In this document: positions 4,651-48,530 of the stretch, in pieces
Layout: the number at the start of each line of letters is the position of its first letter
Position numbering within the stretch: position 1 is the first letter of the stretch
Assembly: GCA_020054095.1 (NCBI GenBank)
Contig: JAGVMA010000044.1
Coordinates: 19,722 to 83,721 of the forward strand
Length of the DNA stretch: 64,000 nucleotides
Direction: 5' to 3'
Source of the DNA: Bacteroidia bacterium
Lineage (GTDB): Bacteria; Bacteroidota; Bacteroidia; JADZBD01
The notes under the pieces: model-generated
What the model saw: only the letters and a program-made list of their open reading frames with translations
The model's database searches: none
Told to the model about the DNA's origin: nothing
Translations under genes and position numbers: made by a program

Positions 4651-4671
4651 GATTACACTTTTTTATTTTGT

Positions 4672-4825
4672 GCGTGAGATTGCTTCGCTATGCTCGCAAT
4701 GACGATGAAAAGAAGCAAGCGGCAAGAAAGAAAAAATATACGAGATTGCCTGCCTGCGAAAGGCGGGCTTGCAATGACGAGTGCAAATGGCGTCATTGCG
4801 AAGGAGCGAAGCAACTGCGGCAATC
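4672..4825. repeat. composite GC-rich palindromic element (terminal inverted repeats plus an internal hairpin), the founding copy of a dispersed repeat family
   Basis: ttgcttcgctatgctcgcaatgacg (4681-4705) is the inverted complement of cgtcattgcgaaggagcgaagcaa (4789-4812). There is an internal hairpin gcctgcctgcgaaaggcgggc. Half or related copies lie at 6239-6280, 12893-12960 and 30565-30655. Confidence 0.6.
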
Positions 4826-4834: not shown

Positions 4835-6323
4835 TTATTTAAATTTCAGTTTTTTGATATTTTTTTCAATGTACTTATCCGTTGGCAACAAACTTGTTTG
4901 TATGCGCTTAGCGTAGCGTATTGAATCTAAAATTTCTTTTTGATTCTCTTCTACCAAGTGTTTTTGATTTTCCACTACCTGCTTTTGTTGTTCAATAATT
5001 AATTTTTGTTTTTGTGTTACACGCAAATTACGGAAAACAAAAAATGCAAATGCAACTACTAAAAGCAAAACTCCACTCACCGAAAACAAAATAATTTGCT
5101 GTTGCTTTTTATCGGCAACTGCTTTTTGGTCTTTTACTTCTTGCTCGGCTTTGGCAGCGGTTTCTTTTTTATCAAACTCGTATTGCATTTGTTGTTGCAC
5201 AGTTTTTTTGGTGTTTTCTTCGTTCACTAAACTATCGCGGTATAAAACATATAGTTTGTAGTTTTCTAATGCGCCTTTATAATTGCCTAATGCGCTATCG
5301 GATTTAGACAGACCATAAAAAGTGTTTTTTTATTGATTCTTTTTCGGCTAATTCAAGTGATAGTTTTAACGCTTTTTCAAGCCATTGTCTGCCAGTTTTA
5401 GCTTCATTGATAAATGGATAAAGATTCCCAATGTTGATATATGAAAGGCACACAAAGCTTTTATCACCAATTATTTCTCCCATTTTTAAAGCCAAAAAAT
5501 AATTATTTTTTGCCTCGGCATAGTTGCCTTGTTCGAAGTACAATGCGCCAAGATTGCCAAGGGAAATGGCCAGCCCTCGTTTGTCACCAATTTCTTCTTT
5601 TATTTTTAGTGACAAAGTGTGATATTTTACTACCATAGTGTAATTTCTTTGTTTAAAATAAATGCCGGCAATATTATTATAGGTAGAAGCCATTCCCTTT
5701 TTATCACCAATATCTTCCTTTATTTTCAATGAGGAGAAATAGGATTTAAGTGCTTCCGAGTAATTATTTTGGTTAGAATAGAGGTTTCCTATATTATTGT
5801 AGCAGTTGGCCACCCCTTTTTTATCACTTATTTCCTCAAAAATAGTTAAAGAAAAATAATAGCATTTCAGCGCTTCGGTATAATTCCCCATTTCAAGATA
5901 ACTCATCCCGCAGCCATTGCTGGAACGCGCCATCCCATCTTTATTGCCTAACTCCGTGTGTAACTTTAAACTTGCTAAATTATTTTTTATCGCTTCGGGG
6001 TGATTCCCCTGTAAATGATATATATTGCCAATGTTATTGTGATAATGCGCCATCCCTTTTTTAAAATTCAATTTTTCGGTAAGCGCTTTAGCTGTGTTGG
6101 CATAGTAAATCGCAGTGTCGTAATTCCCTGCTTGCCACCCCGCCCATTTGCTTAGAGCGTTTAACACATTCACCTTATTTGTATCCTCCTTAGCCGTTTT
6201 TAAAATGGCGAGTAGTGAGTCTATTTTTTTGTTTCCTTGCGCGTGAGATTGCTTCGCTACGCTCGCAATGACGAGGGCAATAAAAAACGGGAGTTTACTA
6301 TTTAACGCGAGTGGGTTTTTCAT
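4835..6323 (-). pseudogene. TPR-repeat / TM / coiled-coil sensor paralog, frameshifted at a homopolymer and lacking the SpoIIE phosphatase domain
   Basis: ORF 5304..6323 (signal peptide plus TPRs) and ORF 4835..5227 (TPR continuation, TM helix, coiled coil, ILDSIRYAKRIQTSLLP) are in different frames. The second frame stays open up to 5329 and reads TPR-like sequence (...KSDSALGNYKGALENYKLY...). The switch must occur within 5307-5329, next to the A7/T7 run at 5325-5331. The architecture matches the paralog at 24459..26435 up to the start of its phosphatase domain. Confidence 0.5.
6239..6280. repeat. solo half-copy of the palindromic repeat family
   Basis: gcgcgtgagattgcttcgctacgctcgcaatgacgag is nearly identical to 4672-4706. 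On the minus strand it encodes ...LVIASVAKQSHAQ of the TPR protein's predicted signal peptide. Confidence 0.55.
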
Positions 6324-6367: not shown

Positions 6368-9300
6368 CTAAAAATACGCCCGTACTTGTGCGCTGCCTGT
6401 GTGTATTACTTTAATGCCTTCGGGTTTGCGGCCATCGTAAATAAATGATAGCTGCATATTGTTGTTTAAATTTCGCTGATAGGATAATTGCCAGGTAAAA
6501 TTATTTCCGGGTTTTAACGATTCGAGCATTTCAAATGCGAGCGGAGAATTTTCGGCATCGTTATAAGTAATTTTTAAATAGTTTGCTTTTGCAAGCAAGC
6601 TGCCTTTTGATAGTATGTTGTATTTTATTTCTGCACCCGCACTTTGTATCGTAGTTTTTTGTCCGCCCAGTTCCACGCTGTTTTTCTTTTCGCTGTAGCG
6701 CAAAATTATTGCTGCTCTAAACGATGTGTTGGGCTGATAAGAAATGCGCGGCTCGGCATCGCTATATGCAATTTTATAATTGCGCGTGGAAAAAAACTGC
6801 GATGTGTTTGATTTTAAACCGCTGCGTACCGAAGATGTTACACTCCATTTGCTGCTGAGGTTAATACGCAATTTTAATTCGTTAAAAGTATTTCCGCGCG
6901 CATCAAACCCGTTTGCCAAAAGTGTTTTATTGCGGTTATCACTATAAGTGTAATCCATCCCGAAAATCATTCCGGCTTGGTTAAAAAACAACGTGTTTCG
7001 CACCGATGAGTTAAGCGCCAGCAAAGTGCTGTCGGCCACATTTTTTAAAAACGGATTATACGATTTTGTTAAATTTTCATCAGTTGATTTTCTATCTACA
7101 CGGTAAGCAGTTTGGTTTGCAAAGCGCGACAAAAATTTTCGCACACCTTTTTTTGTGTTCCATATTGCGGCAGGTTTCAGTAAAAATGTTTGGCTAAACT
7201 GATTGGTATATGTTTTTACATAATCATTAGTAGGCACAAATACTTTTATGTAAGTAGCTTGATCAGGAAAAGCTGCAATTTCAAATTCGTTTAACTCTTT
7301 CACTTCGTTTCCGTTGTAATCCACCCAAGTGTAAACGCCTTGTCCGGCAGGCACTTCAATAAAAGTAAACTCACGTTTTAGCTCAAGTCCGCTTCCTATT
7401 TCATAAAAAGTAGAAGAGTTTATTAATCCTTTGTAAAGTATAAAATCATATTCGGTGCGGCCCACAAGTGAGTTATCGGGCTTGTTAAGTATGAGCGTGG
7501 AATCAACAATTTTTAAATTACGATAAGTGGTTGTAAATCTAAAACGCTGTTTTTGGTTTTTTAGCAACTGCAAATCGAACATCACATTATCGGCAATGGC
7601 AGTAGTGTTTAGGTAATTTTGTTTCACCGCTTTATCTTCTCTTCGCTTGTAGCTAAGTGTAAATTTATTTTTAAATGTATCCGGAGCCGATATAAAAGCT
7701 TCGGCTTCATAAAACTGGTAGCTGGCAGCAGTAAGCGAATCGGAAGCAATGGTGCGGAACTCGTTTTTTTCTGTTTGCGATTTTGCACCCAGTTTTATGT
7801 ATTTAAGATTATAAGCAAACGAACTTATTTGCCGTAAAAATTTTGTGCTCACCGTTTGCGTTTCGGAATTTAGTAGCGATCCGGTGGCGTTAAACGTAAT
7901 TTTTTTATTACTGATGTTGCTGAATAACCCGTGTTTAAATCCCTTGTAATTATCATCTTCCACAAAGCTGCTGAAATTATAACCCAGCACCGAGTTTTTG
8001 TTTACACGATACTCGGCAGTAGATGAAATTAAATGCTGGTTATTATTAAACGTGCCCGTGAGCGGCCGGTTCCAATCTCTATCAAACTCAATGGAACGAT
8101 AGCGCTCAATAAACGTAAATGTTTTTTGCACATACTCGTAGTTAGAGCTAAATTTTAACCATGTTGCCGAACCTTTACCGTCAGCCGATTTTGTTTTCCA
8201 TAATGGCAACGTAGATTCAAAACCTCCGCGTGCGGCAAAGCCCCTGTCGTTAAGTTTATTAAAACGCGAGTAAAGATTAATATCGTATTCGCTCATGGCG
8301 CCTTCGGCAAAAATTTTTGTGTTTTTTGTTTTGCCAAGTTTGTATTCTATTGATGAAGTGAGTAATTGTTTTTTCTTTGGAGAAATTAAAAGTATAACCG
8401 GCTCGAAACTTCCGCGCGGCAAGCCGGTAATGGTATCGGGCATTATCCATTGGTAAACTTTTCCGTTAGCCGATGAGTTTATTTGCACATAGTTTCCTTT
8501 GTTATTTCCTACAAATGAAAAACCAAGTCGCCAATTTGCAAGCGAGTCATCGGTTGAATAAACGTAAACATTGTTATAAGTAAACGAGCCAATGACAGAA
8601 TCAAGTTTTTGGTAAAACACTTCGCTGTTATTATAAGCAGCGCTATCTGCCGATGGCGCAATGGCATTTTGCAAACTATCGCCAACGGACGATAGCAGCA
8701 GTTTTTGCTCTTCGCTAAGCTGCTGCTGCAAAGGGCGGTTTTTGTTATCCTGCTCGTTAAAGTAATTTACTTTAAAAGCAAAATCGCCTTTAGTAAATTC
8801 ACTACCGACATGAAAAAGTGAGCGACCATAATTTTTATCGGAGTACTGAAACTCAACCGTAATCCGCTTGTCTTTTGTGATTTGAATTTTAGGAGTAAAA
8901 ATTATTTCGGCCGTGTTATAGTCAATCACATAATCGTTATCGGCACCGCGTTGCAAAAGCTCACCGTCTATGTAAACTTTTTCAGTACCTGAAAGAATAA
9001 TGATGAATAATTCGTTTTCGGCACCGCGCAAGCGATAAGGCCCTTGATTACTTTCAATGCCCATAAAAATTTGTCGGAAAAATTTTCCTTTGCTTACCGC
9101 ACCGCTTGCTGTTAAAAATAATTTTGCCGTTTTGTTGGGCAGCGGGTTGCTATCTAAATTAAATTTTGTGCTAAAACTTAAACCTTGCGCTCGTTTATAA
9201 AAATTCATGAAATGGCTGTTGGGTCGTTTCATCACAAAATCTCCGGCAATTAGTTTTGTATTTAGTTTTGATACTTGTATAAACACACGGTCGAACTCTT

Positions 9301-9910
9301 GTATTTGCTGCGTGTTTCCATCGGGCTGTATGGGAATATTTTCGTCTGTTGCCGAAAGCAATAAATCAACATCGTTATTCAGTTTGCCCGAAAGCTCCAA
9401 ATGCAAATTAGAGTTTACCGATAAATCTTGATTATTACCAAACTGAATGCCGCGCGATATGTTTCCATTTTTGTTTAATCCGCCAAAAGCAAAAATATCG
9501 TTGTTGGTTTTATTATCGGGCGTATAAATAAATGGATTGGTGATTTTTTTCTTTTCCGGATTTATCAGGTCGCTGTTTTTGCGCTGATATTTTTTACCGA
9601 AGTTAACCGGCAGCGCCCTGAACGAGATTTTACAGCTATCGCCTTTTATTTGCTTTTTATTAAGCTCGGTTCGGTTCCAAATTAACTTACTTTCGGCATG
9701 GTTTATTTTGTAAAAGTTGCTATCGGCAGCGGTTCCATCAGGTAAAATAATTTTTACAGTTCCGTAAACAACGCTCACCGTATCAAGTGTAATGGTATCC
9801 GCTTTAAGCGATATGTATTTTTGCCTGTTATTATTTTGCTGCTGGGCATAGCCATAGTTGCTCGCCACAAGCGCACCCGTAAAAACGATAAAAAGCAACT
9901 GTTTCACCAA
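6368..9910 (-). CDS. large secreted protein, probably an outer-membrane beta-barrel (function unknown)
   Basis: N-terminal signal peptide (…ASNYGYAQQQ), 1180 aa, Asn/Ser/Thr/Tyr-rich composition, and a C-terminal ...VRAYF aromatic terminus typical of OM barrels. Confidence 0.35.
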   Translation of the reverse strand: MVKQLLFIVFTGALVASNYGYAQQQNNNRQKYISLKADTITLDTVSVVYGTVKIILPDGTAADSNFYKINHAESKLIWNRTELNKKQIKGDSCKISFRALPVNFGKKYQRKNSDLINPEKKKITNPFIYTPDNKTNNDIFAFGGLNKNGNISRGIQFGNNQDLSVNSNLHLELSGKLNNDVDLLLSATDENIPIQPDGNTQQIQEFDRVFIQVSKLNTKLIAGDFVMKRPNSHFMNFYKRAQGLSFSTKFNLDSNPLPNKTAKLFLTASGAVSKGKFFRQIFMGIESNQGPYRLRGAENELFIIILSGTEKVYIDGELLQRGADNDYVIDYNTAEIIFTPKIQITKDKRITVEFQYSDKNYGRSLFHVGSEFTKGDFAFKVNYFNEQDNKNRPLQQQLSEEQKLLLSSVGDSLQNAIAPSADSAAYNNSEVFYQKLDSVIGSFTYNNVYVYSTDDSLANWRLGFSFVGNNKGNYVQINSSANGKVYQWIMPDTITGLPRGSFEPVILLISPKKKQLLTSSIEYKLGKTKNTKIFAEGAMSEYDINLYSRFNKLNDRGFAARGGFESTLPLWKTKSADGKGSATWLKFSSNYEYVQKTFTFIERYRSIEFDRDWNRPLTGTFNNNQHLISSTAEYRVNKNSVLGYNFSSFVEDDNYKGFKHGLFSNISNKKITFNATGSLLNSETQTVSTKFLRQISSFAYNLKYIKLGAKSQTEKNEFRTIASDSLTAASYQFYEAEAFISAPDTFKNKFTLSYKRREDKAVKQNYLNTTAIADNVMFDLQLLKNQKQRFRFTTTYRNLKIVDSTLILNKPDNSLVGRTEYDFILYKGLINSSTFYEIGSGLELKREFTFIEVPAGQGVYTWVDYNGNEVKELNEFEIAAFPDQATYIKVFVPTNDYVKTYTNQFSQTFLLKPAAIWNTKKGVRKFLSRFANQTAYRVDRKSTDENLTKSYNPFLKNVADSTLLALNSSVRNTLFFNQAGMIFGMDYTYSDNRNKTLLANGFDARGNTFNELKLRINLSSKWSVTSSVRSGLKSNTSQFFSTRNYKIAYSDAEPRISYQPNTSFRAAIILRYSEKKNSVELGGQKTTIQSAGAEIKYNILSKGSLLAKANYLKITYNDAENSPLAFEMLESLKPGNNFTWQLSYQRNLNNNMQLSFIYDGRKPEGIKVIHTGSAQVRAYF

Positions 9911-10889: not shown

Positions 10890-12656
10890 ATGAAAAAATT
10901 ACTGGTTATTTTATTTGCCGCCTCAGCATCGTTATTTATAACATCGTGCGGTGGTGGCGCTGATGATGAAAATCAATCAACACAAGGCAAAGGCGGAGTT
11001 TATTACGGAGGAGTTTTCCGAATGAACGAAACCGAAAACTTTCGCGATTTATATCCGCTCAATGTTACCGAGGTGGTTTCGCAGCGTATCACTAACCAAA
11101 TTTACGAGGGCTTGGTAAAATTAGATCAGGCCGATTTAAAAATTATTCCTTCGATAGCCGAAAAGTGGGAGAAAAACGAAGATGCCACCGTGTGGACTTT
11201 TTACATGCGCAAAGGCGTTATGTTTCATGATGATTCTTGTTTCGCGGCTGGCAAAGGCCGCGAGGTAAAAGCGCAAGATTTTAAATGGTGTTTCGATAAA
11301 TTGTGCGAAGCATCGGTAAACAACCAGCAATACTATGTTACATTTAAAGATCGTGTGGTGGGTGCCGATGAATATTTTAAATCTACCGAAGAAAAAAAAC
11401 CATTAGCAGGTGGAGTTTCAGGAGTAAAAGTGATAGACGATTACACATTACAAGTTACTTTAAAATTTCCGTTTGCCGGATTTGAAAACATATTGGCAAT
11501 GCCCGGCTGCTGGGTTTATCCGCACGAAGCATTTGAATCTTATGGCGAAGCAATGCGCGCACACTGCGTGGGCACAGGTCCGTTTAAAGTGAATACAATT
11601 GTGGAAGGCGATGTGGTGCTGCTTGAGAAAAACACTAACTACTGGCAAATAGACGAATATGGCAACAAATTACCTTACTTGCAAGGCGTTAAATTCTTTT
11701 TCAAAAAAGAAAAGAAACAGGAATTTTTAATGTTCCGCAACGGAGAGTTGGATATGATTTTCCGTATCCCTAACGAAATGTTTGGCGAAATATTAGCCGA
11801 GCAAAAAGAAGCAAAAGATAATAATCGCCCATTTGAATTACAAAACTGTGCTGCTATGGCAACCTACTATTATGGTTTCCTTAACCCAAGTGCACCATTC
11901 GATAAAAAAGAAATTCGCATGGCATTTAACTTGGCCATTGACAGAGAAAAAATTGTGAAGTTTACTTTAAAAGGCGATGGATTACCTGCCACACATGGTG
12001 CTGTGCCCGAATTAGATGCCTTTAAATCAAAAGGATTTAATTACGATAACGTGAAAGGTTATGCTTATGACCCCGATAAAGCACGCAAATTATTAGCCGA
12101 TGCGGGTTTTGCAGGCGGAAAAGGGTTCCCGAAAATTGTATTGCAAATTAATAGTGGCGGTGGCGATCGTAACGTACTTATTGCACAAGCCATAAAAGGT
12201 ATGTTGCAAGAAAACTTAGGTGTGGAGGCAGAAATAGATCAAATACCATTTGCCGAACATTTACAAAAACTAGAAACTGGCAAAACACTTTTCTGGCGCC
12301 AGGGCTGGATAGCCGATTACCCGGATCCGGAAACATTCCTTACTCTTTTCTTAAGTACACACGTGCCGGCTAAAATGGACGACCGCTCAACTACCAATCC
12401 GTTCCGTTTTAAAAGCGCAAAATTCGATTCGTTGTTTTTAGCCGCCATGAAAGAAACCGATGAGAAAAAACGCTTTGAGCTTTACTCGATGGCCGATGCA
12501 ATTGTTACTGACGAAGCTCCTTTTATGCCATTAGTGTATGACGAAAGCTATCGCCTGATACAAACCAATGTGAAAAATTTTCCGGTTAACGCAATGGAGT
12601 ACCGCGATTTAACCAAAACGTATTTTGTTCCTAAAAAAGAGAATAAGAAAAAATAG
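10890..12656 (+). CDS. ABC transporter substrate-binding lipoprotein (SBP family 5, oligopeptide/nickel type)
   Basis: Lipoprotein signal (LFITSCGG), 588 aa, and family-5 SBP-like sequence features. Confidence 0.7.
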   Translation: MKKLLVILFAASASLFITSCGGGADDENQSTQGKGGVYYGGVFRMNETENFRDLYPLNVTEVVSQRITNQIYEGLVKLDQADLKIIPSIAEKWEKNEDATVWTFYMRKGVMFHDDSCFAAGKGREVKAQDFKWCFDKLCEASVNNQQYYVTFKDRVVGADEYFKSTEEKKPLAGGVSGVKVIDDYTLQVTLKFPFAGFENILAMPGCWVYPHEAFESYGEAMRAHCVGTGPFKVNTIVEGDVVLLEKNTNYWQIDEYGNKLPYLQGVKFFFKKEKKQEFLMFRNGELDMIFRIPNEMFGEILAEQKEAKDNNRPFELQNCAAMATYYYGFLNPSAPFDKKEIRMAFNLAIDREKIVKFTLKGDGLPATHGAVPELDAFKSKGFNYDNVKGYAYDPDKARKLLADAGFAGGKGFPKIVLQINSGGGDRNVLIAQAIKGMLQENLGVEAEIDQIPFAEHLQKLETGKTLFWRQGWIADYPDPETFLTLFLSTHVPAKMDDRSTTNPFRFKSAKFDSLFLAAMKETDEKKRFELYSMADAIVTDEAPFMPLVYDESYRLIQTNVKNFPVNAMEYRDLTKTYFVPKKENKKK

Positions 12657-12680
12657 TTTTTTTCTTATTTATAATTTGTA

Positions 12681-12718
12681 AAAATCCCTTGCTGTGTGGC
12701 CAGGGATTTTTATTTTTT
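12681..12718 (+). terminator. rho-independent terminator after the SBP gene
   Basis: aaaatccct...agggatttt stem followed by a T-run. Confidence 0.6.
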
Positions 12719-12892
12719 ACTAAGCCGCACAATTTCCTGAAGTAGGGCATTTTCTTTTTTTAGCTGGGCGAAAAAATTAAATCATGCAGTTTTTATAGTT
12801 TATATAAAATGCGGATGCAGCAAACTAACGGCAGTATTTAATTTTTATTGTGTGCAGTTTTGTTAACGAATGTTAAAATAAGGTTGATAGGG

Positions 12893-12960
12893 AAGGGTTA
12901 TTGCGAGCAATAGGTCGTGCTTAGACAAGCCCGCCTGCGGCAGGCAGGTTCAGGATGACT
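12893..12960. repeat. palindromic repeat family copy at the left edge of the AT-rich island
   Basis: ttattgcgagcaata palindrome plus gcccgcctgcggcaggcagg, the inverted match of gcctgcctgcgaaaggcgggc in the copy at 4745-4767. Confidence 0.5.
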
Positions 12961-13071
12961 TACGCATTGTTACACAGAGACTATCTAAGCGGAGAAGAAA
13001 CCTTGTTTTATGCAGATTGTGAAGAACTTAATTTGCGCTACCATGCAATGCTAATAACTGAGCACAAAAAA

Positions 13072-13500
13072 TTATTTATTTCTGAAAGTCAATATTTTTT
13101 CAAAATCAAGAAGTTTAAGCATCTTAAAATCATTTGCATAGTGTTTTATGTATTCGCTTACTGGTAATGCAACCACATTTAAGAAATGATTTTCTTTTTG
13201 CTCCAATATGTAATTATCTAACCACATATAATCTTTCTTTAATTGCAATCCAGCTTCATCGCCCTCGATGAGCATTGAAAGCTTCTTGGCTTCTGCAAAG
13301 TTTGTGCAAATAAATCCTTGCCTTAGGTTTTCGGCCGAATGTAGTCTTAACTTATAAATATCTTTTCCGTCAATTATTAAATGATGTTGCTGCCATTTAT
13401 AGCAAGCCTCCTTATTTGAATAGATGAAATCAATGTAGGGTTCGCCCGCTTTAACTATTTTTTTATCATACTCCTTTAAATTTTCAAATGCAAAAATCAT
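13072..13500 (-). CDS. hypothetical 142-aa protein translationally coupled to the RM enzyme gene
   Basis: Its ATG overlaps the TGA of the upstream gene (ATGA at 13497-13500). It shares the island's AT-rich composition. No motif was recognised. Confidence 0.5.
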   Translation of the reverse strand: MIFAFENLKEYDKKIVKAGEPYIDFIYSNKEACYKWQQHHLIIDGKDIYKLRLHSAENLRQGFICTNFAEAKKLSMLIEGDEAGLQLKKDYMWLDNYILEQKENHFLNVVALPVSEYIKHYANDFKMLKLLDFEKILTFRNK

Positions 13501-16500
13501 TTTCTTTCAATTATTTTTATTTCTTCTTTGGTAAGGTCGTAAAGTTTATAAACCAATTCGTCAATTTTCCTTTCCTGTTCGCTACTGTCTTTGCTTTGTT
13601 GTTTGAGTGAAATTATCTTGTCAACCAGTTTTGCTATTTCGTTAGCGTCTTTGTCAGCCGGTTTGTAAATAGGAATTTCAAGTAATGGTTCTTTGTCTAA
13701 TTGATAAGCGTTGCCTTGCATTTTACCTTTTTTGCGAAGCCAAAAAGCAACAAGTTTTGAGTTGAGCAAACCTGTCAAATATTTTAAGTTTATTCTTTTT
13801 GAACGAATAACATTAAAAGACATCATTACATATGCTTCTTCTTCCGTGAATGCAAATGTTGGAACAGCACATTTTCTAACACTTAAAATTTTCTCACCTT
13901 TTTCAAAGAAATATTCATCTCTTGGCCAATGCAAATTATTAAAACCGAGTTTGCCCTGTTGGTTTTCTCTGCGGTCTTCCATAATCTCCTTGAATTTCTC
14001 TAAATGAGAAATAAGTTTTGGTGCATCGTTTTTGAAATTCTTCTTTGTGATGTAGATAATCTCTTTGTCAAAATCATTTATTGAATACTTGTCAATTAGA
14101 TAAGGCTCGTAAACAGGTTTAATGTATCTGCTTTCTTTCACAGATAATTTTCCGAAAAAACCTTTATCAATAATGAAAACACCATCGCCAACTTTTATAT
14201 TTTCTTTTTTTACTCTTGCCGCTGGTAATTTTAGAATGTTATTATTGTTTACAACATCAGGATTAGGAACAATTCCCTGAGCAATTTCTTTCTTTGGGTC
14301 AATTATGAAATTGTGTTTTGTTTTTATCTTCTCAAGCAATCCTGAGTTTTCGTCTGTGTTAAAAGTCAATGGCTTATCAATTAAATTGCCTTTCAATATT
14401 GTTGGTGAAAGTAAATTTGATTTTTCGGTTTCTGTTCCATCAAGTAAGTTTAACACATCCTGCAAAACAAGTTTATCACCTTCTAACCGTCTGTAATCAA
14501 AACTATAATTGTCTGCTGTTTTGGTGTTTTTGAAAAGCATTATCATAGTTTGAATAGAGGCGTTTTCAAAAATCATATATGCACCAAAGTCAGTAAGATT
14601 TACGATTTGGCTATTTTGAATTACAATGTTTCTGAAATTTGATGCCCCTGCATTTGTACCCCAGTTGTTTGTTGCGATGTAACACAAATAATTATCTCGT
14701 TTCAAAATCTTTAAACCTAAATCGCCAAACAAATACCAAATGTCCATTTTACCCTGATAACATTCAAGGTTTCGCAAGCCATTAAAAGCATCACGGTTTG
14801 TATCTTCTTTGATGTATGGCGGATTTCCAATGATTAAATCAAAACCTTCAAACTCACCTTTGTTGTTAAGCACTTCGGGAAATTCAAAACGCCATTCAAA
14901 AGCGTTTTTGTATAAAGCATTAGATTTTATCTCCTCAATTTCTTTTGAAAGTTTATTTATATCATCCTCAAGTTTTTTCTGCCTTTCCTTTAAATCTTTT
15001 TTATAGTTTTTATTTCCATAGTTTGGTTCATCCTCTTTCACCATTCCTTTAAACAAATTGGGAGAAACAATAAGATAAAGTTCTTCGCTTAATTTTTGTA
15101 GCCGCTTAACTTTCGGGTCGTTTTTATAAATCTCGGTTCTGAAATCGCCTTTAATGGTGTCAATAATTTTCTGCAATCCCCTTTTTACATCACGATTTTT
15201 TTCGTTTTTATATTCGTTTACAAAACCCCTGTATGCTTTTATGTCGTGCTTTATGCTTTTCAGAGCTTTACTCAAATCAGCATCTAATGGAAAACGGCTT
15301 AATAAACTGTTTGCGCATTTTATATTGATGTCAATGTTTGGAAGCGTTTCAAGCTCTGTGTATTCTGTTTCTTTGTAGTAAGCATTTTTCAACAATTCTA
15401 TCCATAAACGCAATCGGCATATAAGAACAGATTTTGGGTTAATGTCAACGCCAAACAAACAGTTTTCAATGATGGTTTGCTTTTGATGAAAAAGCGTTTT
15501 TTGGATTTTCTGTTTCGAAGAGTTTGTTATTCGCTCATATGCTGCTTTATCACCCCCAAAGCTATAAGAGATGCTTTTGTTTTGAATTTGAGGTGCTACA
15601 TAAGAAAAACGCTCGTATGTATCTTTGTCGTAAACATATAGTTCGTCATCTAAAACCTCAACTACTACATTATGCAACACATTGCCTTTTTCATCAGCCA
15701 AAATGCCTAACTCAGATTTGATAGCAATCATTTCATTGAGTGCAGAAACTAAAAAGTGTCCTGAACCTACTGCTGGGTCGCAGATGTGTAATGAATTGAT
15801 GATTTCATTTGCTTTTAAAATTTCTCCGGTTTTGAAAAGGCGCGAAGTGTAGTTCTTAATATCATCAAATTTGTCAAAAAGTTTTTTGCTTTTGTCTGCT
15901 AATGCTTCGTTGAACTTTTCTACAACCGCCAAACGGATTGATTGACGGCACATATACATTGTGATAAATGCAGGTGTGAAAATTGAACCGTCACGGTAGC
16001 CGTTTATTTTTTCAAATACTTTTCCAAGAACGGAAGCATTTATCAGTTGCTTGTTGTCTTTTTGCCAATCTTCTGACCCTTCGCTTGCAAAATCGTAAGC
16101 ATCTAAAAATTGAAACAAGTAATCCAAAGAGGGCAGCGAAGCTGTCTTCTTTTTGATTTCTTTTAAGATGGTTGTATTTATTATTTCAAGCTGTCCGTCA
16201 TTTTCAAGCGAATTGATTTTGATCGTTTGGTCTTCCAGTTCGCTGATTTCAAATAGAGAACTGTTTAAGTATGGAACACGGTTGTATTTTGATTTGATTA
16301 GCCCTGTTCTGTCAGCAATGTTTACCGCTAAAACTTTGTGAAACAGTTTAAACAGTTCATCATAGTCGTGAATGGTTTCTGAATTAAGGAAACGATAATC
16401 TTTATTTCCTTGATGATAGGCAATGAGTTGACCTTCCAATAATTTCAAAAACAAAATCCTGTTTATCCAAGTAATACAGAGTTCTAAAGCAATATTGAAA

Positions 16501-17450
16501 GTTTGTTCTTCTTTGTTTTCGCCATAAACTTTGATGTCGGGAATACGGTGAAATGTATCTTCTGTTTTTAATGCTTCAATTGTTAGTTCAATAAGTGAAG
16601 CGGCATTTTTGTTTTCCTTCTTTCGTCTAATTACATTTTTTGTTCCTTCTCTTGCTTCTTCCAGTCCGATGATATGAAGCAACTCTTTGTAAAATCTTTC
16701 ATTTAGTGTGTTGCTGTCGTTTGGCGAAACAATTTTCAAAAGATGCTGTGGCGAAAGAATTTTGTAAAGTGCAACAAGTTCTTTGTCGTCATCCGTTTTA
16801 GTGTTACGGAGAATTTTCTCGTAATCCCTAATGTCAAAATAAACGCAAGGAATTTCAACCTCTATTTTAGAAACAATTTTTGCAATCTCTTCATAAAACC
16901 AAGGATTATCTTTCTTGTCGTTTACTTTGGTTTCGTATAGTTTTCGGATTTGTGTGTTTCGGTAAATATGTTTGTCAAAGTAGTTTGCATCAATGATAAA
17001 CCATTGGTTGATGTCAGTAACAACCAGATGTTTTAGCTGCACATTTTCCTTTGCGTTTCTTTCTGTCAGGTAATAAAGAATGAGTTCGTGTAATGCTTTT
17101 TTGTTGGCATTGTGAGCCGTAATCATTTCTTTAGCATTGGAAGGTCGTTTTGCTTCAATAATTACCGCAACATCCGTGTCTGTTGATTTGCCAATGTGAA
17201 TTACCAAATCTTTTTTGTCTTTGGTGTTTATGGCGTTGCTATCAATGTAGAAAGTGTCACGAAGGAAGTCGCGGAGATTGTTTTTTAAGTGTTCTTCGCT
17301 TTCGTCTTTGGGTTGCTTTTCAATAACACTAATCTTGTCAAACAAAGCAATCAAGTTGTTTTTAAACTTGTCTCTTTCGCTTTCTGAAGGTCGTTGCTTC
17401 AAAAATGCTTTAATTGCTTTTTTGGGTGATTGTGTTACTAATTTCATCAA
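13497..17450 (-). CDS. type IIG (MmeI/Eco57I-like) restriction-modification enzyme: N-terminal PD-(D/E)xK nuclease, gamma-class N6-adenine MTase, C-terminal TRD
   Basis: The 1317-aa protein has DTDVAVIIEAKRP (D...ExK), then VPYLNSSLFE and GSIFTP (motif X), DPAVGSGHFLVSAL (motif I), CANSLLS, EWRFEFPEV and FDLIIGNPPY (motif IV). It ends in a TaqI/Eco57I-type C-terminal specificity domain (...ELVYKLYDLTKEEIKIIE). These align with MmeI landmarks. Confidence 0.8.
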   Translation of the reverse strand: MMKLVTQSPKKAIKAFLKQRPSESERDKFKNNLIALFDKISVIEKQPKDESEEHLKNNLRDFLRDTFYIDSNAINTKDKKDLVIHIGKSTDTDVAVIIEAKRPSNAKEMITAHNANKKALHELILYYLTERNAKENVQLKHLVVTDINQWFIIDANYFDKHIYRNTQIRKLYETKVNDKKDNPWFYEEIAKIVSKIEVEIPCVYFDIRDYEKILRNTKTDDDKELVALYKILSPQHLLKIVSPNDSNTLNERFYKELLHIIGLEEAREGTKNVIRRKKENKNAASLIELTIEALKTEDTFHRIPDIKVYGENKEEQTFNIALELCITWINRILFLKLLEGQLIAYHQGNKDYRFLNSETIHDYDELFKLFHKVLAVNIADRTGLIKSKYNRVPYLNSSLFEISELEDQTIKINSLENDGQLEIINTTILKEIKKKTASLPSLDYLFQFLDAYDFASEGSEDWQKDNKQLINASVLGKVFEKINGYRDGSIFTPAFITMYMCRQSIRLAVVEKFNEALADKSKKLFDKFDDIKNYTSRLFKTGEILKANEIINSLHICDPAVGSGHFLVSALNEMIAIKSELGILADEKGNVLHNVVVEVLDDELYVYDKDTYERFSYVAPQIQNKSISYSFGGDKAAYERITNSSKQKIQKTLFHQKQTIIENCLFGVDINPKSVLICRLRLWIELLKNAYYKETEYTELETLPNIDINIKCANSLLSRFPLDADLSKALKSIKHDIKAYRGFVNEYKNEKNRDVKRGLQKIIDTIKGDFRTEIYKNDPKVKRLQKLSEELYLIVSPNLFKGMVKEDEPNYGNKNYKKDLKERQKKLEDDINKLSKEIEEIKSNALYKNAFEWRFEFPEVLNNKGEFEGFDLIIGNPPYIKEDTNRDAFNGLRNLECYQGKMDIWYLFGDLGLKILKRDNYLCYIATNNWGTNAGASNFRNIVIQNSQIVNLTDFGAYMIFENASIQTMIMLFKNTKTADNYSFDYRRLEGDKLVLQDVLNLLDGTETEKSNLLSPTILKGNLIDKPLTFNTDENSGLLEKIKTKHNFIIDPKKEIAQGIVPNPDVVNNNNILKLPAARVKKENIKVGDGVFIIDKGFFGKLSVKESRYIKPVYEPYLIDKYSINDFDKEIIYITKKNFKNDAPKLISHLEKFKEIMEDRRENQQGKLGFNNLHWPRDEYFFEKGEKILSVRKCAVPTFAFTEEEAYVMMSFNVIRSKRINLKYLTGLLNSKLVAFWLRKKGKMQGNAYQLDKEPLLEIPIYKPADKDANEIAKLVDKIISLKQQSKDSSEQERKIDELVYKLYDLTKEEIKIIERK

Positions 17451-17471
17451 ATATTCCTGTCAATAATTAAA

Positions 17472-17492
17472 AGACCTAAATTAGGTTTTTTG
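17472..17492. terminator. hairpin plus T-run between the hflX end and the RM gene start
   Basis: agacctaaattaggt palindrome followed by tttttt. Confidence 0.35.
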
Positions 17493-17563
17493 TCAGCAGA
17501 ATACATTAAAACTTTTTATTTGTTAAAAAATAAAGTAATTACTTGCAATTGGTGCGGTAGCCC

Positions 17564-18766
17564 TCAATACAAAAACGAATTATACGGATAACGGATGCTA
17601 TGCATTTTTTTAACCATATCGTAAAGGGTACTGCGCATTTCATCAATATTTTGTTTTTTAACGGCAGCAATAAAAACACATTTTATATTTTGGTTTCCCA
17701 TCCACGATTTTTTCCAATCATCGAGCGAATAGTTTCGCTTTGTTACAGGCGATAAATCAATAGGGTCTTTTTCTTCGTAAGTAAATGCATCAATTTTATT
17801 AAATACCAAAAGCGTAGGTTTATCGTGTGCTTTAATATCGGCAAGGGTTTGGTTCACCACATTTATTTGGTCTTCAAAATGGGGGTTAGAAATATCTACC
17901 ACGTGTACTAAAATATCTTCCTCGCGCACTTCGTCAAGTGTAGATTTAAATGATTCTACCAACTGTGTGGGCAGCTTGCGAATAAACCCAACTGTATCGC
18001 TCAGTAAAAAAGGTACATTGTCAATCACCACTTTTCGTACAGTAGTATCAAGCGTGGCAAATAATTTATTTTCAGCAAATACTTCTGATTTACTAAGCAT
18101 ATTCATAATAGTAGATTTTCCCACATTGGTATATCCCACCAAAGCAACTCGTATTAATTCGCCCCTGTTTTTTCGCTGGGTTGCCATTTGTTTATCTATG
18201 TCTACTAATTTTTGTTTTAACAGTGCAATGCGGTCGCGCAAAATTCTGCGGTCGCTTTCAATTTGCAATTCGCCCGAACCGCCACGAGTTCCGGTGCCAC
18301 CGCGCTGGCGCTCTAAGTGGGTCCACATACCGGTGAGGCGTGGCAGCATGTATTGGTAGTAAGCTAATTCTACTTGTGTTTTAGCATAAGCAGTTTGTGC
18401 CCGCTGCGAAAATATTTGCAGTATAAGCGAATTGCGGTCATGAATTTTTATGTTCAATTCTTTTTCCACATTTCGCATCTGCGATGGCGAAAGTTCATCA
18501 TCGAAAATTGCGATTTGTATTTTATGCTCATCTACATATTTTTTTATTTCCTGTAATTTTCCGCTGCCTACAAATGTTCGCACATCGGGCTTTTCGAGTT
18601 TTTGAGTAAAGCGTTTTTTTGCATCGGCACCATAAGTGAGTGCTAAGAATGCTAACTCATCTAAATACTCGTTTAATTTATTTTCATCTTGCTCACGATT
18701 AATTAAGCCAATGAGCAGTGCAGGAATTAAATCGGCAGGTTTTGTATGTTTAATTTTTTCGAGCAA
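17564..18766 (-). CDS. hflX: GTPase HflX
   Basis: HflX N-domain followed by a G domain (GYTNVGKST, DTVGF, NKID). Confidence 0.85.
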   Translation of the reverse strand: MLEKIKHTKPADLIPALLIGLINREQDENKLNEYLDELAFLALTYGADAKKRFTQKLEKPDVRTFVGSGKLQEIKKYVDEHKIQIAIFDDELSPSQMRNVEKELNIKIHDRNSLILQIFSQRAQTAYAKTQVELAYYQYMLPRLTGMWTHLERQRGGTGTRGGSGELQIESDRRILRDRIALLKQKLVDIDKQMATQRKNRGELIRVALVGYTNVGKSTIMNMLSKSEVFAENKLFATLDTTVRKVVIDNVPFLLSDTVGFIRKLPTQLVESFKSTLDEVREEDILVHVVDISNPHFEDQINVVNQTLADIKAHDKPTLLVFNKIDAFTYEEKDPIDLSPVTKRNYSLDDWKKSWMGNQNIKCVFIAAVKKQNIDEMRSTLYDMVKKMHSIRYPYNSFLY

Positions 18767-46293: not shown

Positions 46294-46390
46294 TTTTATT
46301 GCTGCCATCAGCGTAACTATTGTATGCCGCTGTTCGTTTTAGTTTTTGTAAATTTGCACATCAATAAAAAACAACCCTAAAACATAAATC

Positions 46391-47428
46391 ATGAAAAAAC
46401 AACTACTTTTTGCATCACTTGCATTTGCATTTACTGCAAAGGCACAAATTACATTAGTGGAGTGGGACGTAGCTCCGGTAGGCACACAGCTTGTGCAAGA
46501 CCAAGATACAATTCCTAACGTGCAGCCCGGCTCATCAGGTGCTAATGCCGTTTGGAATTTTATTAATGTGGTTCCACACACAACTAGCAATATAAGTGTT
46601 ACCAACCCTAACTGGACACCATACAGTTCGGAAATGCAGGGCTCAAACTTGGCATTTGACTTAGGCCAGCAAACCTATTTTTACCTTAATAACACTTCTA
46701 ATGGGCTTTTTGCAATTGGGCAAGCAGGCGATTTTGGTCTTGGGCCAATGGCAATTAGACTTGACGACCAAGAGCAACTATTAAAATTCCCGATGACTTA
46801 TAATACAAGCTTTAATGATACTTCGCTTGTAGATTTTACTACATTTTTCGGACAACAAGGAATAGATTCTGTTCGCATAGTTCAATACAAAACCAAAACA
46901 GTGAATGTAGATGGCTGGGGAAACATCACCACTCCGCTTGGCACATTTACGTGCTTGCGACAAAAAAACTATAGCATCACCACTACCGATATTTACGGCT
47001 ATGTAATGTTTGTTGGCTGGCAACCGCTACAAAGCCAAGTGGATACTAACTACCAATTTGAGTGGTGGACACAAAACAAAGGTTATGCAGTAATGAGCAT
47101 GGATAGTGCGGTGGATGGAACCATTTCAAATGTTAATTGGTTATCGGCCAATCCGGCACCTAATGCTGTGGAAGAAAACAATGCAGCTGTAAGCATCGGG
47201 GTTTATCCTAATCCGGCTAACAGCGTAATTAGTTTTGATGTAACCAATGTCAATGCCGAGCAATTATCTATTACTGATATTACCGGCCGCGCAGTGCAAA
47301 CCATAAATGTGCAGCAAAACTTAATTAATATGAATGTTACCGATTTTGCCGCAGGCACTTATATCTATACCGTGCGCGATGCAAATGGCGCCATCGTTAC
47401 ATCGGGTAAGTTTAATGTAACCAAGTAA
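46391..47428 (+). CDS. secreted protein with type A T9SS C-terminal sorting domain
   Basis: Signal peptide. The C-terminus VYPNPANSVISFDV...GTYIYTV...FNVTK is a Por_Secre_tail pattern. Confidence 0.7.
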   Translation: MKKQLLFASLAFAFTAKAQITLVEWDVAPVGTQLVQDQDTIPNVQPGSSGANAVWNFINVVPHTTSNISVTNPNWTPYSSEMQGSNLAFDLGQQTYFYLNNTSNGLFAIGQAGDFGLGPMAIRLDDQEQLLKFPMTYNTSFNDTSLVDFTTFFGQQGIDSVRIVQYKTKTVNVDGWGNITTPLGTFTCLRQKNYSITTTDIYGYVMFVGWQPLQSQVDTNYQFEWWTQNKGYAVMSMDSAVDGTISNVNWLSANPAPNAVEENNAAVSIGVYPNPANSVISFDVTNVNAEQLSITDITGRAVQTINVQQNLINMNVTDFAAGTYIYTVRDANGAIVTSGKFNVTK

Positions 47429-47541
47429 TACTATTTTTTTAGCAAAAGCCTCGCTTCCATTCTGAACATATTTAATGGAGCCGGGCTTTTGCAATTTTAA
47501 AAAAGATTACTTACTTTTATTGACCTTTAAATAACAGAAAC

Positions 47542-48471
47542 ATGAAAAAACAATTACTATTAATAGCTACTGTTGCCTCATCACTAGCACTATTTGCACA
47601 ACAAAATGCAAGTTTTGAAACTTGGTCGTCAATATTTAATGCCCCCACACAACCCAATAACTGGGTTAGTGCAAATTTATTTGCATCACCACTTATTGAT
47701 GCTAACAACCCTACATCGGTATTTAAAGATTCGTTAGCGAATAAAACCAACGGACAGTATTCCATGAAAATTACCACAATAAAACTAACCACCAATCCCG
47801 ACCCGGCAGCAATCCCGGATACATTAGGATACGCTGCACAAGGAGTAGTGATCGTTCAGTTACCTACATTTAATATTTTAGATAGGTTACCATTCACTGG
47901 CCGTCCGGCAAATTTTAATTTCATGTACAAATACACACCAAGCGGTACCGACAGTGCATTTGCATACATAGAGCTAACAAAATGGAACACTACATTAATG
48001 CGCAGAGACACAATAGGCGCAATGGGATTTTTTATGTTAGCCTCAACTAATTTCGCTACCGGTGGAGGTTCGCTTATTTATAATCCATTGTATCCAAATA
48101 CATTCCCCGATAGTTTGCACATTTCTTTTTCATCAAGCAGCTACCTTACACCGCGCTTAGGCAGCACCATGTGGGTTGATGAAATTTCGCTTACAGGTTG
48201 GACAGGAATAAGCCAAATAGATGCCAATGCTTCTTATGTAAAAGCATTTCCTAACCCATCAAATAGTGCTGTAACCATTTCAGTTGATTTGCCTAATGCT
48301 AAACACATTACTATTTACAATCAACTTGGGCAAACAATGGGCACCAAGCAAATTAATGCCAAACAAATTATAATTGAAGCAAATACATTTGCTCCGGGCA
48401 ATTATTACTATTCCGTTACCGATGAAAACGGAACAGTAGTTGCCGGAAATACATTTACCATCACACATTAG
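47542..48471 (+). CDS. secreted protein with type A T9SS C-terminal sorting domain
   Basis: Signal peptide. C-terminus AFPNPSNSAVTISV...YYYSVTDENG...FTITH. Confidence 0.7.
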   Translation: MKKQLLLIATVASSLALFAQQNASFETWSSIFNAPTQPNNWVSANLFASPLIDANNPTSVFKDSLANKTNGQYSMKITTIKLTTNPDPAAIPDTLGYAAQGVVIVQLPTFNILDRLPFTGRPANFNFMYKYTPSGTDSAFAYIELTKWNTTLMRRDTIGAMGFFMLASTNFATGGGSLIYNPLYPNTFPDSLHISFSSSSYLTPRLGSTMWVDEISLTGWTGISQIDANASYVKAFPNPSNSAVTISVDLPNAKHITIYNQLGQTMGTKQINAKQIIIEANTFAPGNYYYSVTDENGTVVAGNTFTITH

Positions 48472-48480
48472 TTTTCACTA

Positions 48481-48512
48481 AAAAATACTCCGCCTTGGCG
48501 GAGTATTTTTTC
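48481..48512 (+). terminator. rho-independent terminator
   Basis: aaaaatactccgcc-tt-ggcggagtattttt. Confidence 0.65.
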
Positions 48513-48530
48513 ACCACTTAGGTTAAAAAA

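What the first reader, a model, noticed from the sequence alone, without database searches (positions are those of the whole stretch)
12960..17560. AT-rich island carrying a single-chain MmeI/Eco57I-type (type IIG) RM enzyme between housekeeping genes
The segment is visibly more AT-rich than its flanks (SBP gene on the left, hflX on the right). It is bounded on the left by a palindromic repeat copy and on the right by a terminator hairpin. It contains only the 1317-aa nuclease-methyltransferase-TRD fusion and a coupled small ORF. The nuclease and methyltransferase motifs are intact (D..ExK, DPAVGSGHFL, NPPY), so it looks like an active, horizontally acquired defence locus with no integrase or transposase.
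Basis: partly seen in the sequence, partly recalled or inferred. Interest (0 to 1): 0.6.

Follow-up and report, generated by a model that had tools for sequence, protein, structure and literature searches.

The report
Lone restriction-modification enzyme with unknown partner
The AT-rich segment carries an ordinary single-protein (type IIG) restriction-modification enzyme; the more interesting part is the small unknown gene fused to its end, whose relatives also sit directly behind two unrelated kinds of such enzymes in other bacteria.

Summary
An intact 1316-aa gene (13497-17447, minus strand) lies between an SBP_bac_5 gene and hflX. A 142-aa ORF (13072-13500) overlaps its stop codon by 4 nt (ATGA). 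The segment has the lowest GC in the window (33.3% vs 37.3%) and the most deviant di- and tetranucleotide composition.

The large protein matches a curated type IIG model end to end (E 5e-239). Its domains are DUF7149, DUF7814, an Eco57I-type methylase and a TaqI_C recognition domain. D80-x17-E98xK100, DPAVGSGHFL and NPPY are present and conserved. It is not an MmeI-family member, and no second methylase lies in the 64 kb. It is a new member of a very large known family.

The small ORF is the unexpected part.
- It belongs to a rare family: 33 clusters among 1.84 billion representatives.
- It has no Pfam, PADLOC or PDB match. Its confident model (pLDDT 94) has no Foldseek match in the PDB or BFVD.
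- In four of seven 50%-identity groups with readable context it directly follows a type IIG gene, and those genes have three different architectures.

Its function is unknown. My best guess is a non-enzymatic partner of the methylase core. Horizontal acquisition is supported by composition and mosaicism, but no empty site was found.

The parts
13497..17447 (-). Type IIG restriction-modification enzyme gene (1316 aa from the ATG at 17447; stop codon 13497-13499)
   Evidence: PADLOC PDLC03612 matches residues 9-1316 to model positions 9-1246 of 1247, E 5e-239. Pfam finds DUF7149, DUF7814, Eco57I and TaqI_C. More than 8000 homologues exist, the best 89% identical.
16716..17429 (-). N-terminal domain (Pfam DUF7149, residues 7-244), the presumed PD-(D/E)xK nuclease. 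The catalytic-type motif D80-x17-E98-x-K100 is encoded at 17148-17210.
   Evidence: Pfam 261 bits. D80, E98 and K100 are at least 90% conserved in 11 diverse homologues. The fold itself was not verified.
16041..16715 (-). Linker domain between nuclease and methylase (Pfam DUF7814, residues 245-469)
   Evidence: Pfam 292 bits. Many columns in this region are invariant.
14568..15821 (-). Gamma-class N6-adenine methyltransferase domain (residues 543-960). Motif I DPAVGSGHFL is at 15750-15779 and motif IV NPPY at 14814-14825. A lineage-specific variable insert (residues 596-650) is at 15498-15662.
   Evidence: Pfam Eco57I 115 bits and MmeI_Mtase 30.9 bits. A family profile hits M.BseCI (E 4e-36), CamA, BrxX and M.TaqI in the PDB. 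Motifs I and IV are invariant. The insert is described.
13668..14447 (-). Target-recognition region (residues about 1001-1260, with the TaqI_C match at 1163-1260). In some otherwise 90-100% identical homologues this region has been replaced.
   Evidence: Pfam TaqI_C 38.4 bits. The identity profile shows P0040, P0091 and P0116 dropping to 30-40% only in blocks 1050-1200.
13072..13500 (-). 142-aa ORF translationally coupled to the RM gene (ATGA overlap). It belongs to a rare uncharacterised family.
   Evidence: It has 13 close homologues and 33 clusters at 50% identity among 1.84 billion representatives. dN/dS is 0.13 against the L003 copy. The AF2 model has pLDDT 94.3. No Pfam, NCBIfam, PADLOC, PHROG or PDB match was found. 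Relatives sit directly behind type IIG genes of three architectures.
12895..12962 (.). REP-like palindromic intergenic repeat at the left edge (core 12929-12948)
   Evidence: A second copy lies at 4749-4768 (-), where 0 are expected by chance. Related repeats lie at 4659-4714 and 6228-6283. The fold is not better than shuffled sequence (z -0.87).
12678..12713 (+). Intrinsic-terminator-like hairpin of the SBP gene, marking the true left limit of host sequence
   Evidence: -17.5 kcal/mol, z -4.44, followed by a T run ([I25], 81).
17451..17563 (-). 113-bp, 27% GC spacer between the hflX stop and the RM start. It contains the palindrome at about 17468-17492.
   Evidence: Sequence, GC, folds on both strands.

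Best explanation
The segment is a two-gene defence cassette in a Bacteroidota chromosome.

Gene 1 is a solitary single-chain type IIG restriction-modification enzyme.
- A C-terminal TaqI-like recognition domain should read a short asymmetric DNA site.
- The gamma-class methylase (motif I DPAVGSGHFL, motif IV NPPY) should methylate an adenine in that site on host DNA.
- The N-terminal PD-(D/E)xK-type domain (D80, E98, K100) should cut unmethylated incoming DNA at a distance.
- No second methylase lies in the 64 kb, so protection would have to work as in MmeI (one-strand methylation by the same polypeptide). By sequence, however, the protein belongs to a different family (DUF7149-DUF7814-Eco57I-TaqI_C).

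Shown here: gene integrity, domain order, conserved motifs, family membership, absence of a partner methylase and of mobility genes. Inferred: activity, specificity and cleavage geometry.

Gene 2 is a 142-aa protein translated by stop-start coupling from the same mRNA. It belongs to a rare family under purifying selection with a confident predicted fold. Its most likely role is a non-enzymatic binding partner of the methylase/TRD core of such fused enzymes. I rate this about 0.35 on its own; it is an inference from gene linkage only.

The cassette was most likely acquired horizontally. This rests on composition, mosaic structure and exchangeable TRD, not on an empty site.
For: RM identity:
- End-to-end PADLOC type IIG match, E 5e-239.
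- Pfam domain order.
- The methylase-TRD half aligns to M.BseCI, CamA, BrxX and M.TaqI.
- Catalytic motifs are conserved across homologues of 45-90% identity.
- The protein is full length relative to more than 100 homologues.
- The gene contains no frameshift, homopolymer tract or simple repeat.

Solitary:
- It is the only ORF in the window with a [DNS]PP[YFW] motif or a hit to the family profile.
- The flanks are SBP, HflX, cytochrome c, a glycosyltransferase and similar genes.

Acquisition:
- Lowest GC in the window and rank 1 of 130 in oligonucleotide deviation.
- Homologues 83-89% identical occur in other metagenome assemblies, some of them MAGs labelled Bacteroidales, while the best HflX relative is 77%.
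- TRD replacement and mosaic segments.
- Family members lie on plasmids of several phyla.
- None of 160 hflX loci carries it.

Small protein:
- Relatives are coupled (ATGA or TTGA overlap, or a 7-nt gap) to type IIG genes of three PADLOC families: PDLC03612, PDLC03598 (MmeI family) and PDLC03610 (GIY-YIG + Type_ISP_C).
- dN/dS is 0.13.
- The model has pLDDT 94.
- No polar residue is conserved across the family.
Against: - No biochemical or methylome evidence for activity exists.
- The nuclease fold of DUF7149 was not verified. hhalign against one MmeI N-terminus gave nothing, with Neff about 2.
- No empty site was found. The side of hflX facing the island is not syntenic in any relative, so absence there is weak evidence.
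- The GC3 of the RM gene is within 1 SD of host genes.
- The small protein is absent from most RM relatives (0 of 41 IMG/VR loci).
- It also occurs without any RM gene (L176-178; L172 after TPR proteins).
- Two of its partner genes have lost the nuclease N-terminus (L003, L170).
- A direct functional link is therefore not proven.
Confidence: 0.8

Rival explanations
1. The 142-aa gene is an unrelated hitchhiker or defence-island cargo. It tends to land at, or be retained behind, the 3' ends of defence genes and has no direct role in restriction-modification.
For: - It occurs alone in a housekeeping context (L176-178).
- It occurs behind TPR proteins in an integrative element (L172).
- It occurs behind PDC-M64-like genes (L168).
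- It occurs next to GmrSD.
- It is absent from most RM relatives.
- It persists where the partner has lost its nuclease domain.
Against: - Direct stop-start coupling was established with three unrelated type IIG architectures.
- Four of seven 50%-identity groups with readable context are coupled in this way, although type IIG genes are a tiny fraction of all genes.
- In L006 the small ORF has decayed together with its RM gene.
Confidence: 0.35
2. The large gene is no longer a restriction enzyme. It acts only as a methyltransferase (epigenetic or orphan) or is inactive.
For: - Relatives with a truncated nuclease N-terminus exist (L003, L170).
- No activity data are available.
- Solitary type IIG enzymes carry a risk of self-cleavage.
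Against: - The gene is full length, with D80, E98 and K100 and the whole DUF7149 domain conserved at 90-100% identity to its nearest homologues.
- No premature stop and no phase-variable tract is present.
Confidence: 0.1
3. The segment is an ancestral resident of this lineage, not a recent acquisition. Its AT-richness reflects the amino-acid composition of a Lys/Asn/Ile/Glu-rich enzyme.
For: - GC3 (0.32) is within 1 SD of host genes (0.355 +/- 0.037).
- No mobility genes or target duplications are present.
- Another region (46-48 kb, T9SS cargo genes) is almost as deviant.
- No empty site was found.
Against: - The RM protein is 83-89% identical to copies in other metagenome assemblies, some labelled Bacteroidales, while HflX finds nothing above 77%.
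- The gene is a mosaic with an exchanged TRD.
- The family is carried on plasmids in several phyla.
Confidence: 0.2
4. The large protein is the methylase subunit of a BREX (PglX) or DISARM (DrmMI) system, not a stand-alone RM enzyme.
For: There are partial hits to PglX and DrmMI models over the methylase region and to BrxX structures.
Against: - The scores are far below NCBIfam cut-offs (81.5 vs 500 bits).
- The type IIG model scores 795 bits against 82 or less for PglX and DrmMI.
- No PglZ, BrxA/B/C/L or DrmA/B/C genes lie in the neighbourhood.
- An N-terminal nuclease-type domain is present.
Confidence: 0.02

Closest known systems
MmeI family (type IIL/IIG; structure 5HR4; PMC2582602, PMC2731913, PMC4833311)
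   Same: Both are a single polypeptide with an N-terminal PD-ExK-type motif, a central gamma-class N6-adenine methylase and a C-terminal TRD. Neither has a companion methylase nearby. Specificity can change by altering or exchanging the TRD.
   Different: The sequence families differ. MmeI_N, MmeI_hel, MmeI_TRD and MmeI_C do not match, and MmeI_Mtase is barely above its cut-off. This protein is about 400 aa longer, with a long helical insert between motifs I and IV. MmeI is described as a one-protein system, whereas here a coupled small gene follows. A true MmeI-family gene with a relative of that small gene does exist (L174).
Eco57I / AcuI-type type IIG enzymes
   Same: The methylase domain matches Pfam Eco57I (PF07669, 115 bits). 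The layout is a nuclease-methylase-TRD fusion.
   Different: Eco57I needs a separate second methylase (stated in PMC2582602), and none is present in this window. The N-terminal DUF7149/DUF7814 module was not compared with the N-terminus of Eco57I, so whether they differ is untested.
RM.BpuSI (type IIG; PMC3185434)
   Same: BpuSI has an N-terminal nuclease with a PD-x15-ExK motif linked through helical domains to a methylase and TRD. Here the motif is D-x17-ExK.
   Different: No sequence-level match to BpuSI was found in the PDB searches. BpuSI is about 880 aa against 1316 aa here.
M.BseCI, CamA and M.TaqI (stand-alone gamma-class methylases with TaqI-like TRDs)
   Same: Residues about 840-1290 align end to end with these enzymes (profile E 4e-36 to 2e-31). 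The alignment includes NPPY and the TaqI_C recognition domain.
   Different: Those enzymes have no nuclease and no N-terminal 550-aa extension. Motif I lies much further upstream here.
PglX/BrxX (BREX) and DrmMI (DISARM)
   Same: The methylase core is related and has a similar long insert.
   Different: Scores are below the family thresholds, there are no system partners, and this protein has a nuclease-type N-terminus.
Accessory genes embedded in RM loci: C (controller) proteins and PrrC in the EcoprrI locus (from general knowledge, not tested here)
   Same: These are also small or extra genes co-transcribed with an RM system that modulate or back up restriction. They are the nearest conceptual analogues for the 142-aa gene.
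   Different: The 142-aa protein has no helix-turn-helix match, no nuclease or ATPase motifs and no detectable similarity to any of them.

Membership tests
Type IIG restriction-modification enzymes (single-chain REase-MTase-TRD) | End-to-end similarity to a curated type IIG family model | tested here: met
   PADLOC REase_MTase_IIG PDLC03612, E 5e-239, residues 9-1316 against model positions 9-1246 of 1247.
Type IIG restriction-modification enzymes (single-chain REase-MTase-TRD) | Nuclease catalytic motif of the PD-(D/E)xK type in the same polypeptide | tested here: met
   D80-x17-E98-A-K100 is at least 90% conserved in 11 homologues of 45-90% identity. This is motif-level evidence only.
Type IIG restriction-modification enzymes (single-chain REase-MTase-TRD) | The N-terminal domain adopts a restriction-endonuclease fold | tested here: inconclusive
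   hhalign against one MmeI-family N-terminus gave probability 0.3% with Neff about 2. PDB profile searches hit only the methylase-TRD half.
Type IIG restriction-modification enzymes (single-chain REase-MTase-TRD) | Gamma-class N6-adenine methylase: motif I (xPxxGxGxF) upstream of motif IV (NPPY/F/W) | tested here: met
   DPAVGSGHFL at 557-566 and NPPY at 875-878 are both invariant. Pfam Eco57I scores 115 bits.
Type IIG restriction-modification enzymes (single-chain REase-MTase-TRD) | C-terminal target-recognition domain | tested here: met
   TaqI_C at residues 1163-1260. The region aligns to the BseCI and CamA TRDs. TRD replacement is seen among near-identical homologues.
Type IIG restriction-modification enzymes (single-chain REase-MTase-TRD) | AdoMet-dependent cleavage at a fixed distance from an asymmetric site, and methylation of that site | not testable with these tools
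   This needs enzyme assays or a methylome.
MmeI family (type IIL) | MmeI-specific domains (MmeI_N, MmeI_hel, MmeI_TRD, MmeI_C) | tested here: not met
   Only MmeI_Mtase hits, at 30.9 bits against a cut-off of 27. A true member (L174) hits all five domains.
MmeI family (type IIL) | No companion methylase; host protection by the same polypeptide | tested here: met
   For the 64-kb window only: no other ORF has a [DNS]PP[YFW] motif or hits the family profile. The rest of the genome was not seen.
Eco57I-type systems | Separate second methylase gene next to the fused enzyme | tested here: not met
   None in the window. The requirement is stated in PMC2582602.
BREX PglX / DISARM DrmMI | Score above the family threshold, and system partner genes adjacent | tested here: not met
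   NCBIfam PglX scores 81.5 bits against a cut-off of 500. The neighbours are SBP, HflX, cytochrome c and similar genes.
Controller (C) proteins of RM systems (considered for the 142-aa ORF) | Helix-turn-helix DNA-binding domain | tested here: not met
   No HTH or any other Pfam hit in 41 family members. No significant Foldseek match.
DNA-mimic anti-restriction proteins (Ocr/ArdA-like; considered for the 142-aa ORF) | Strongly acidic protein, carried by phages or plasmids | tested here: not met
   pI is 6.96 here and the family median is 5.6. The family is absent from the phage, plasmid and IMG/VR collections.

The most novel reading that the evidence does not exclude
The 142-aa protein defines a previously undescribed family of dedicated partner subunits for single-chain restriction-modification enzymes, with a fold that has no Foldseek match in the PDB or BFVD. 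It has been recruited, each time by stop-start coupling, to three unrelated type IIG architectures: DUF7149/Eco57I-type, MmeI-type and GIY-YIG/Type-ISP-type. The methylase core is the only part these enzymes share, so the protein would bind there and tune the balance between methylation and cleavage, for example by limiting self-restriction on establishment or after replication. That would mean some supposedly 'minimal one-protein' RM systems are in fact two-component.
Probability: 0.35. Interest if true: 0.65.

Novelty: new variant of a known kind. Interest (0 to 1): 0.45.

Why it matters
The enzyme itself adds one more member to a very large family and is of routine interest (REBASE-type annotation, possible new specificity).

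The small partner gene is the part worth following.
- Single-chain type IIG/IIL enzymes are the textbook 'minimal' RM systems.
- How they avoid killing a naive or replicating host, with one-strand methylation and no separate control of nuclease and methylase expression, is still discussed.
- A conserved, co-translated, non-enzymatic protein that recurs behind three unrelated architectures would be a concrete, testable candidate for such control, or for a new accessory defence function.
- Defence-system annotation tools currently ignore it.

Tried and rejected
1. Empty-site test. HflX was used to scan species-representative genomes and metagenome contigs.
   - The best relatives are 73-77% identical.
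   - The cytochrome c-hflX side is conserved, but the island side is not syntenic in any of 160 loci.
   - No locus has the SBP, the RM gene or the small ORF there.
   - The test is therefore uninformative about recent insertion.
2. An exact-sequence look-up of the RM protein found nothing. The small ORF's exact copy is on three contigs, of which only short ones could be read.
3. Transposon-like ends. No flanking direct or inverted repeats beyond chance were found.
4. RNA elements. No Rfam family and no tRNA occurs in the window.
5. The nuclease fold by hhalign against an MmeI N-terminus gave no signal, because the profiles were too shallow.
7. The first AF2 run on the small protein, with 13 close sequences, was poor (pLDDT 65). 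It was superseded by the 41-sequence run.
8. Remnants of the HATPase_c_4 gene that follows the small ORF in L003-5 were sought in 12600-13100. None were found.
9. The small family profile weakly hit an MMPL transporter in L021 (23.6 bits). I judged this spurious.
10. BREX/DISARM, a C-protein and a DNA-mimic reading were rejected (see the membership tests).
11. Literature searches for DUF7149/DUF7814 and for coupled or accessory proteins of type IIG enzymes found nothing relevant.
12. The third large protein-database search was deliberately not used.
Full report
**1. What is there**

Between an SBP_bac_5 solute-binding protein gene (10890..12656, +) and hflX (17564..18766, -; TIGR03156, 405.7 bits) lie two minus-strand ORFs.
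- The first is a 1317-codon ORF, 13497..17450. Homologues begin MKL(I/V)TQSPKK, so the start is the ATG at 17447, giving 1316 aa.
- The second is a 142-aa ORF, 13072..13500, whose ATG overlaps the stop codon of the large gene (…AAATGATT…).
- The SBP gene ends in a strong terminator hairpin at 12678-12713 (-17.5 kcal/mol, z -4.4).
- About 350 bp of spacer follow. It contains a REP-like palindrome with core 12929-12948. A second copy lies at 4749-4768, where 0 are expected by chance. Related repeats lie at 4659 and 6228.
- On the right, a 113-bp, 27% GC spacer separates hflX from the large gene.
- The palindrome in that spacer (about 17468-17492) folds well only on the + strand. It is weak on the strand that is actually transcribed, and the consensus scan did not call it a terminator.
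- No tRNA, Rfam family, integrase, transposase, flanking repeat or simple-sequence tract is present.

**2. Composition**

- The segment is 33.3% GC against 37.3% for the window.
- No non-overlapping 4.6-kb stretch is as low; the minimum elsewhere is 34.0%.
- It ranks first of 130 sliding windows in both dinucleotide signature (delta* 129 against 60 +/- 25) and tetranucleotide distance.
- The signal is real but modest. GC3 of the large gene (0.32) is within one SD of the other genes.
- A cluster of T9SS cargo genes at 46-52 kb is almost as deviant.

**3. The large protein**

- Pfam gives DUF7149 (7-244), DUF7814 (245-469), Eco57I methylase (662-960, 115 bits), a marginal MmeI_Mtase match (30.9 bits) and TaqI_C (1163-1260).
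- PADLOC's type IIG model PDLC03612 matches end to end (E 5e-239).
- PDB sequence and profile searches hit only the methylase-TRD half: M.BseCI (E 4e-36), CamA, BrxX and M.TaqI.
- D80-x17-E98-A-K100, DPAVGSGHFL (557-566) and NPPY (875-878) are invariant or nearly so among homologues of 45-90% identity.
- PglX scores are far below threshold (81.5 against 500 bits), and no BREX or DISARM partner genes are nearby.
- It is the only ORF in the 64 kb with a [DNS]PP[YFW] motif. Within the window it is therefore solitary, like MmeI and unlike Eco57I, which needs a second methylase (PMC2582602).
- It is not an MmeI-family member, because the MmeI N-terminal, helical, TRD and C-terminal models do not match.
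- The nuclease fold of DUF7149 is inferred from the motif only. An hhalign test was uninformative.

**4. Family and history**

- More than 8000 homologues exist. The best are 83-89% identical, and some come from MAGs labelled Bacteroidales.
- Members lie on plasmids of Bacteroides, Enterococcus, Pediococcus, Nostoc and others at 33-43% identity.
- Identity profiles show near-identity (90-100%) to the closest homologues except in residues about 600-650 and 750-850. There the window protein resembles more distant lineages (L003, P0100, P0116), so it is a mosaic.
- In P0040, P0091 and P0116 only the recognition region (1050-1200) drops to 30-40%, which indicates TRD replacement.
- The best HflX relative anywhere is 77% identical.
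- Together with composition, this favours horizontal acquisition.
- The direct test failed. In 160 hflX loci the cytochrome c side is conserved, but the other side is never syntenic. Absence of the cassette there therefore says little.

**5. The small ORF**

It is a real gene.
- It has 13 close homologues of the same length.
- dN/dS is 0.13 against a 74%-identical copy.
- An exhaustive profile search of 1.84 billion representatives finds only 33 clusters, all of them small proteins and none a fusion.
- With the 41-sequence alignment, AlphaFold2 gives pLDDT 94.3 and pTM 0.87: an N-terminal beta-sheet followed by a helical half.

Nothing known matches it.
- No match in Pfam, NCBIfam, PADLOC or PHROGs for any member.
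- No match to PDB sequences.
- No Foldseek match against the PDB (best E about 1, TM 0.15) or against BFVD.
- It is absent from the plasmid, phage and IMG/VR collections.
- Across the family only M1, I2, P21, G62, A71, L74 and Y97 are at least 90% conserved, so there is no catalytic-looking set of residues.
- It is mildly acidic, with a median pI of 5.6.

**6. Its genomic company**

Seven 50%-identity groups have readable context.

Four directly follow a type IIG gene:
- The window's own group follows DUF7149-type partners, in the window and in L003-5.
- P0138 in Balneolales follows a DUF7149-type partner (L170/171).
- P0144 follows a bona fide MmeI-family enzyme (L174/175; PADLOC PDLC03598, 1223 bits).
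- P0158 follows an N6_Mtase + GIY-YIG + Type_ISP_C enzyme (L179; PDLC03610, 843 bits).
- The junction is an ATGA or TTGA overlap in the first three groups and a 7-nt gap in the last.

The other three:
- One group lies three genes downstream of a DUF7149-type enzyme, behind PDC-M64-like genes (L168).
- One follows TPR proteins in an integrative element (L172).
- One is solitary among housekeeping genes (L176-178).

Further observations:
- In L006 a truncated copy sits behind a 60-aa remnant of the RM C-terminus.
- None of 41 IMG/VR loci with DUF7149-type enzymes has the small gene.
- Two partner genes (L003, L170) lack the nuclease N-terminus.

**7. Interpretation**

- The three partner architectures differ in nuclease type and position and in TRD type. 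They share only the gamma-class methylase core.
- The small protein has no enzymatic signature and is co-translated with its partner.
- The best-supported guess is a non-enzymatic partner or modulator acting on the methylase core, or on a step common to all such enzymes (probability about 0.35).
- The main rival is a defence-island hitchhiker with no direct RM role (about 0.35).
- Neither can be decided without experiments or complex prediction.

**8. Verdict**

- The enzyme is a new member of a very large, already catalogued type IIG family. That is ordinary.
- The recurrent coupling of an uncharacterised, apparently novel-fold small protein to three kinds of 'one-protein' RM systems is not described in the literature I could search.
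- This makes the locus a modestly interesting new variant.

Noticed in passing
window 4659-4714, 4745-4800, 6228-6283, 12895-12962: A dispersed family of short GC-rich palindromic intergenic repeats (…GTCATTGCGAGC…GCGAAGCAATC… and …AAGCCCGCCT…GCAGGCAGG…), REP-like. All copies seen are intergenic.
   Followed up: partly
window 13848-14447 (RM residues about 1001-1200) compared with P0040, P0091 and P0116: Homologues that are 90-100% identical elsewhere drop to 30-40% only in the recognition region. This is whole-TRD replacement and implies different specificities in near-identical enzymes.
   Followed up: partly
window 15498-15662 and about 14950-15070 (RM residues 596-650 and about 790-830): Two segments of the window enzyme carry insertions. 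They resemble distant lineages (L003, P0100, P0116) rather than the 89%-identical nearest homologues, so the gene is a recombinant mosaic.
   Followed up: partly
L003 86-1336 (-) and 2013-4781 (+): A group II intron reverse transcriptase (RVT_1 + GIIM) lies just upstream, in opposite orientation, of an RM gene that lacks its whole N-terminal nuclease domain (922 aa). This may be an intron-associated truncation.
   Followed up: no
L170 3714-10783 (Balneolales MAG): An N-terminally short type IIG gene and its coupled small ORF are followed by a 1052-aa SIR2-pAgo-type protein (PADLOC pAgo, 1513 bits). Together they form a compact defence island.
   Followed up: no
L168 5490-6965: Three genes lie between a type IIG gene and the small-family member: one PDC-M64B-like, one HTH_3 and one PDC-M64C-like. 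This is a candidate defence system in the same operon direction.
   Followed up: no
L003 5380-5814, L004 2877-3311, L005 1738-2172: A 144-aa HATPase_c_4 fragment gene consistently follows the small ORF in this lineage. No remnant of it exists in the window.
   Followed up: yes
window 17468-17492: An A/T-rich palindrome with a T run forms a good terminator-like hairpin only on the + strand, where no upstream gene exists. On the - strand (hflX, RM gene) it is weak, so hflX and the RM gene may be co-transcribed.
   Followed up: partly
window 46388-52768: A cluster of four genes carries Por_Secre_tail (T9SS sorting) domains, including a CotH kinase-like protein and an M43 peptidase. Its oligonucleotide composition is nearly as deviant as that of the RM island.
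   Followed up: partly
window 6371-9910 (-) and 52859-56164 (-): Two very large ORFs (1180 and 1102 aa) have no Pfam match at E <= 1e-5 and 1e-6 respectively.
   Followed up: no
L021 2106-4451 (-): The small-family profile weakly hits (23.6 bits) a periplasmic loop of an MMPL-family transporter. I judged this a chance match.
   Followed up: yes
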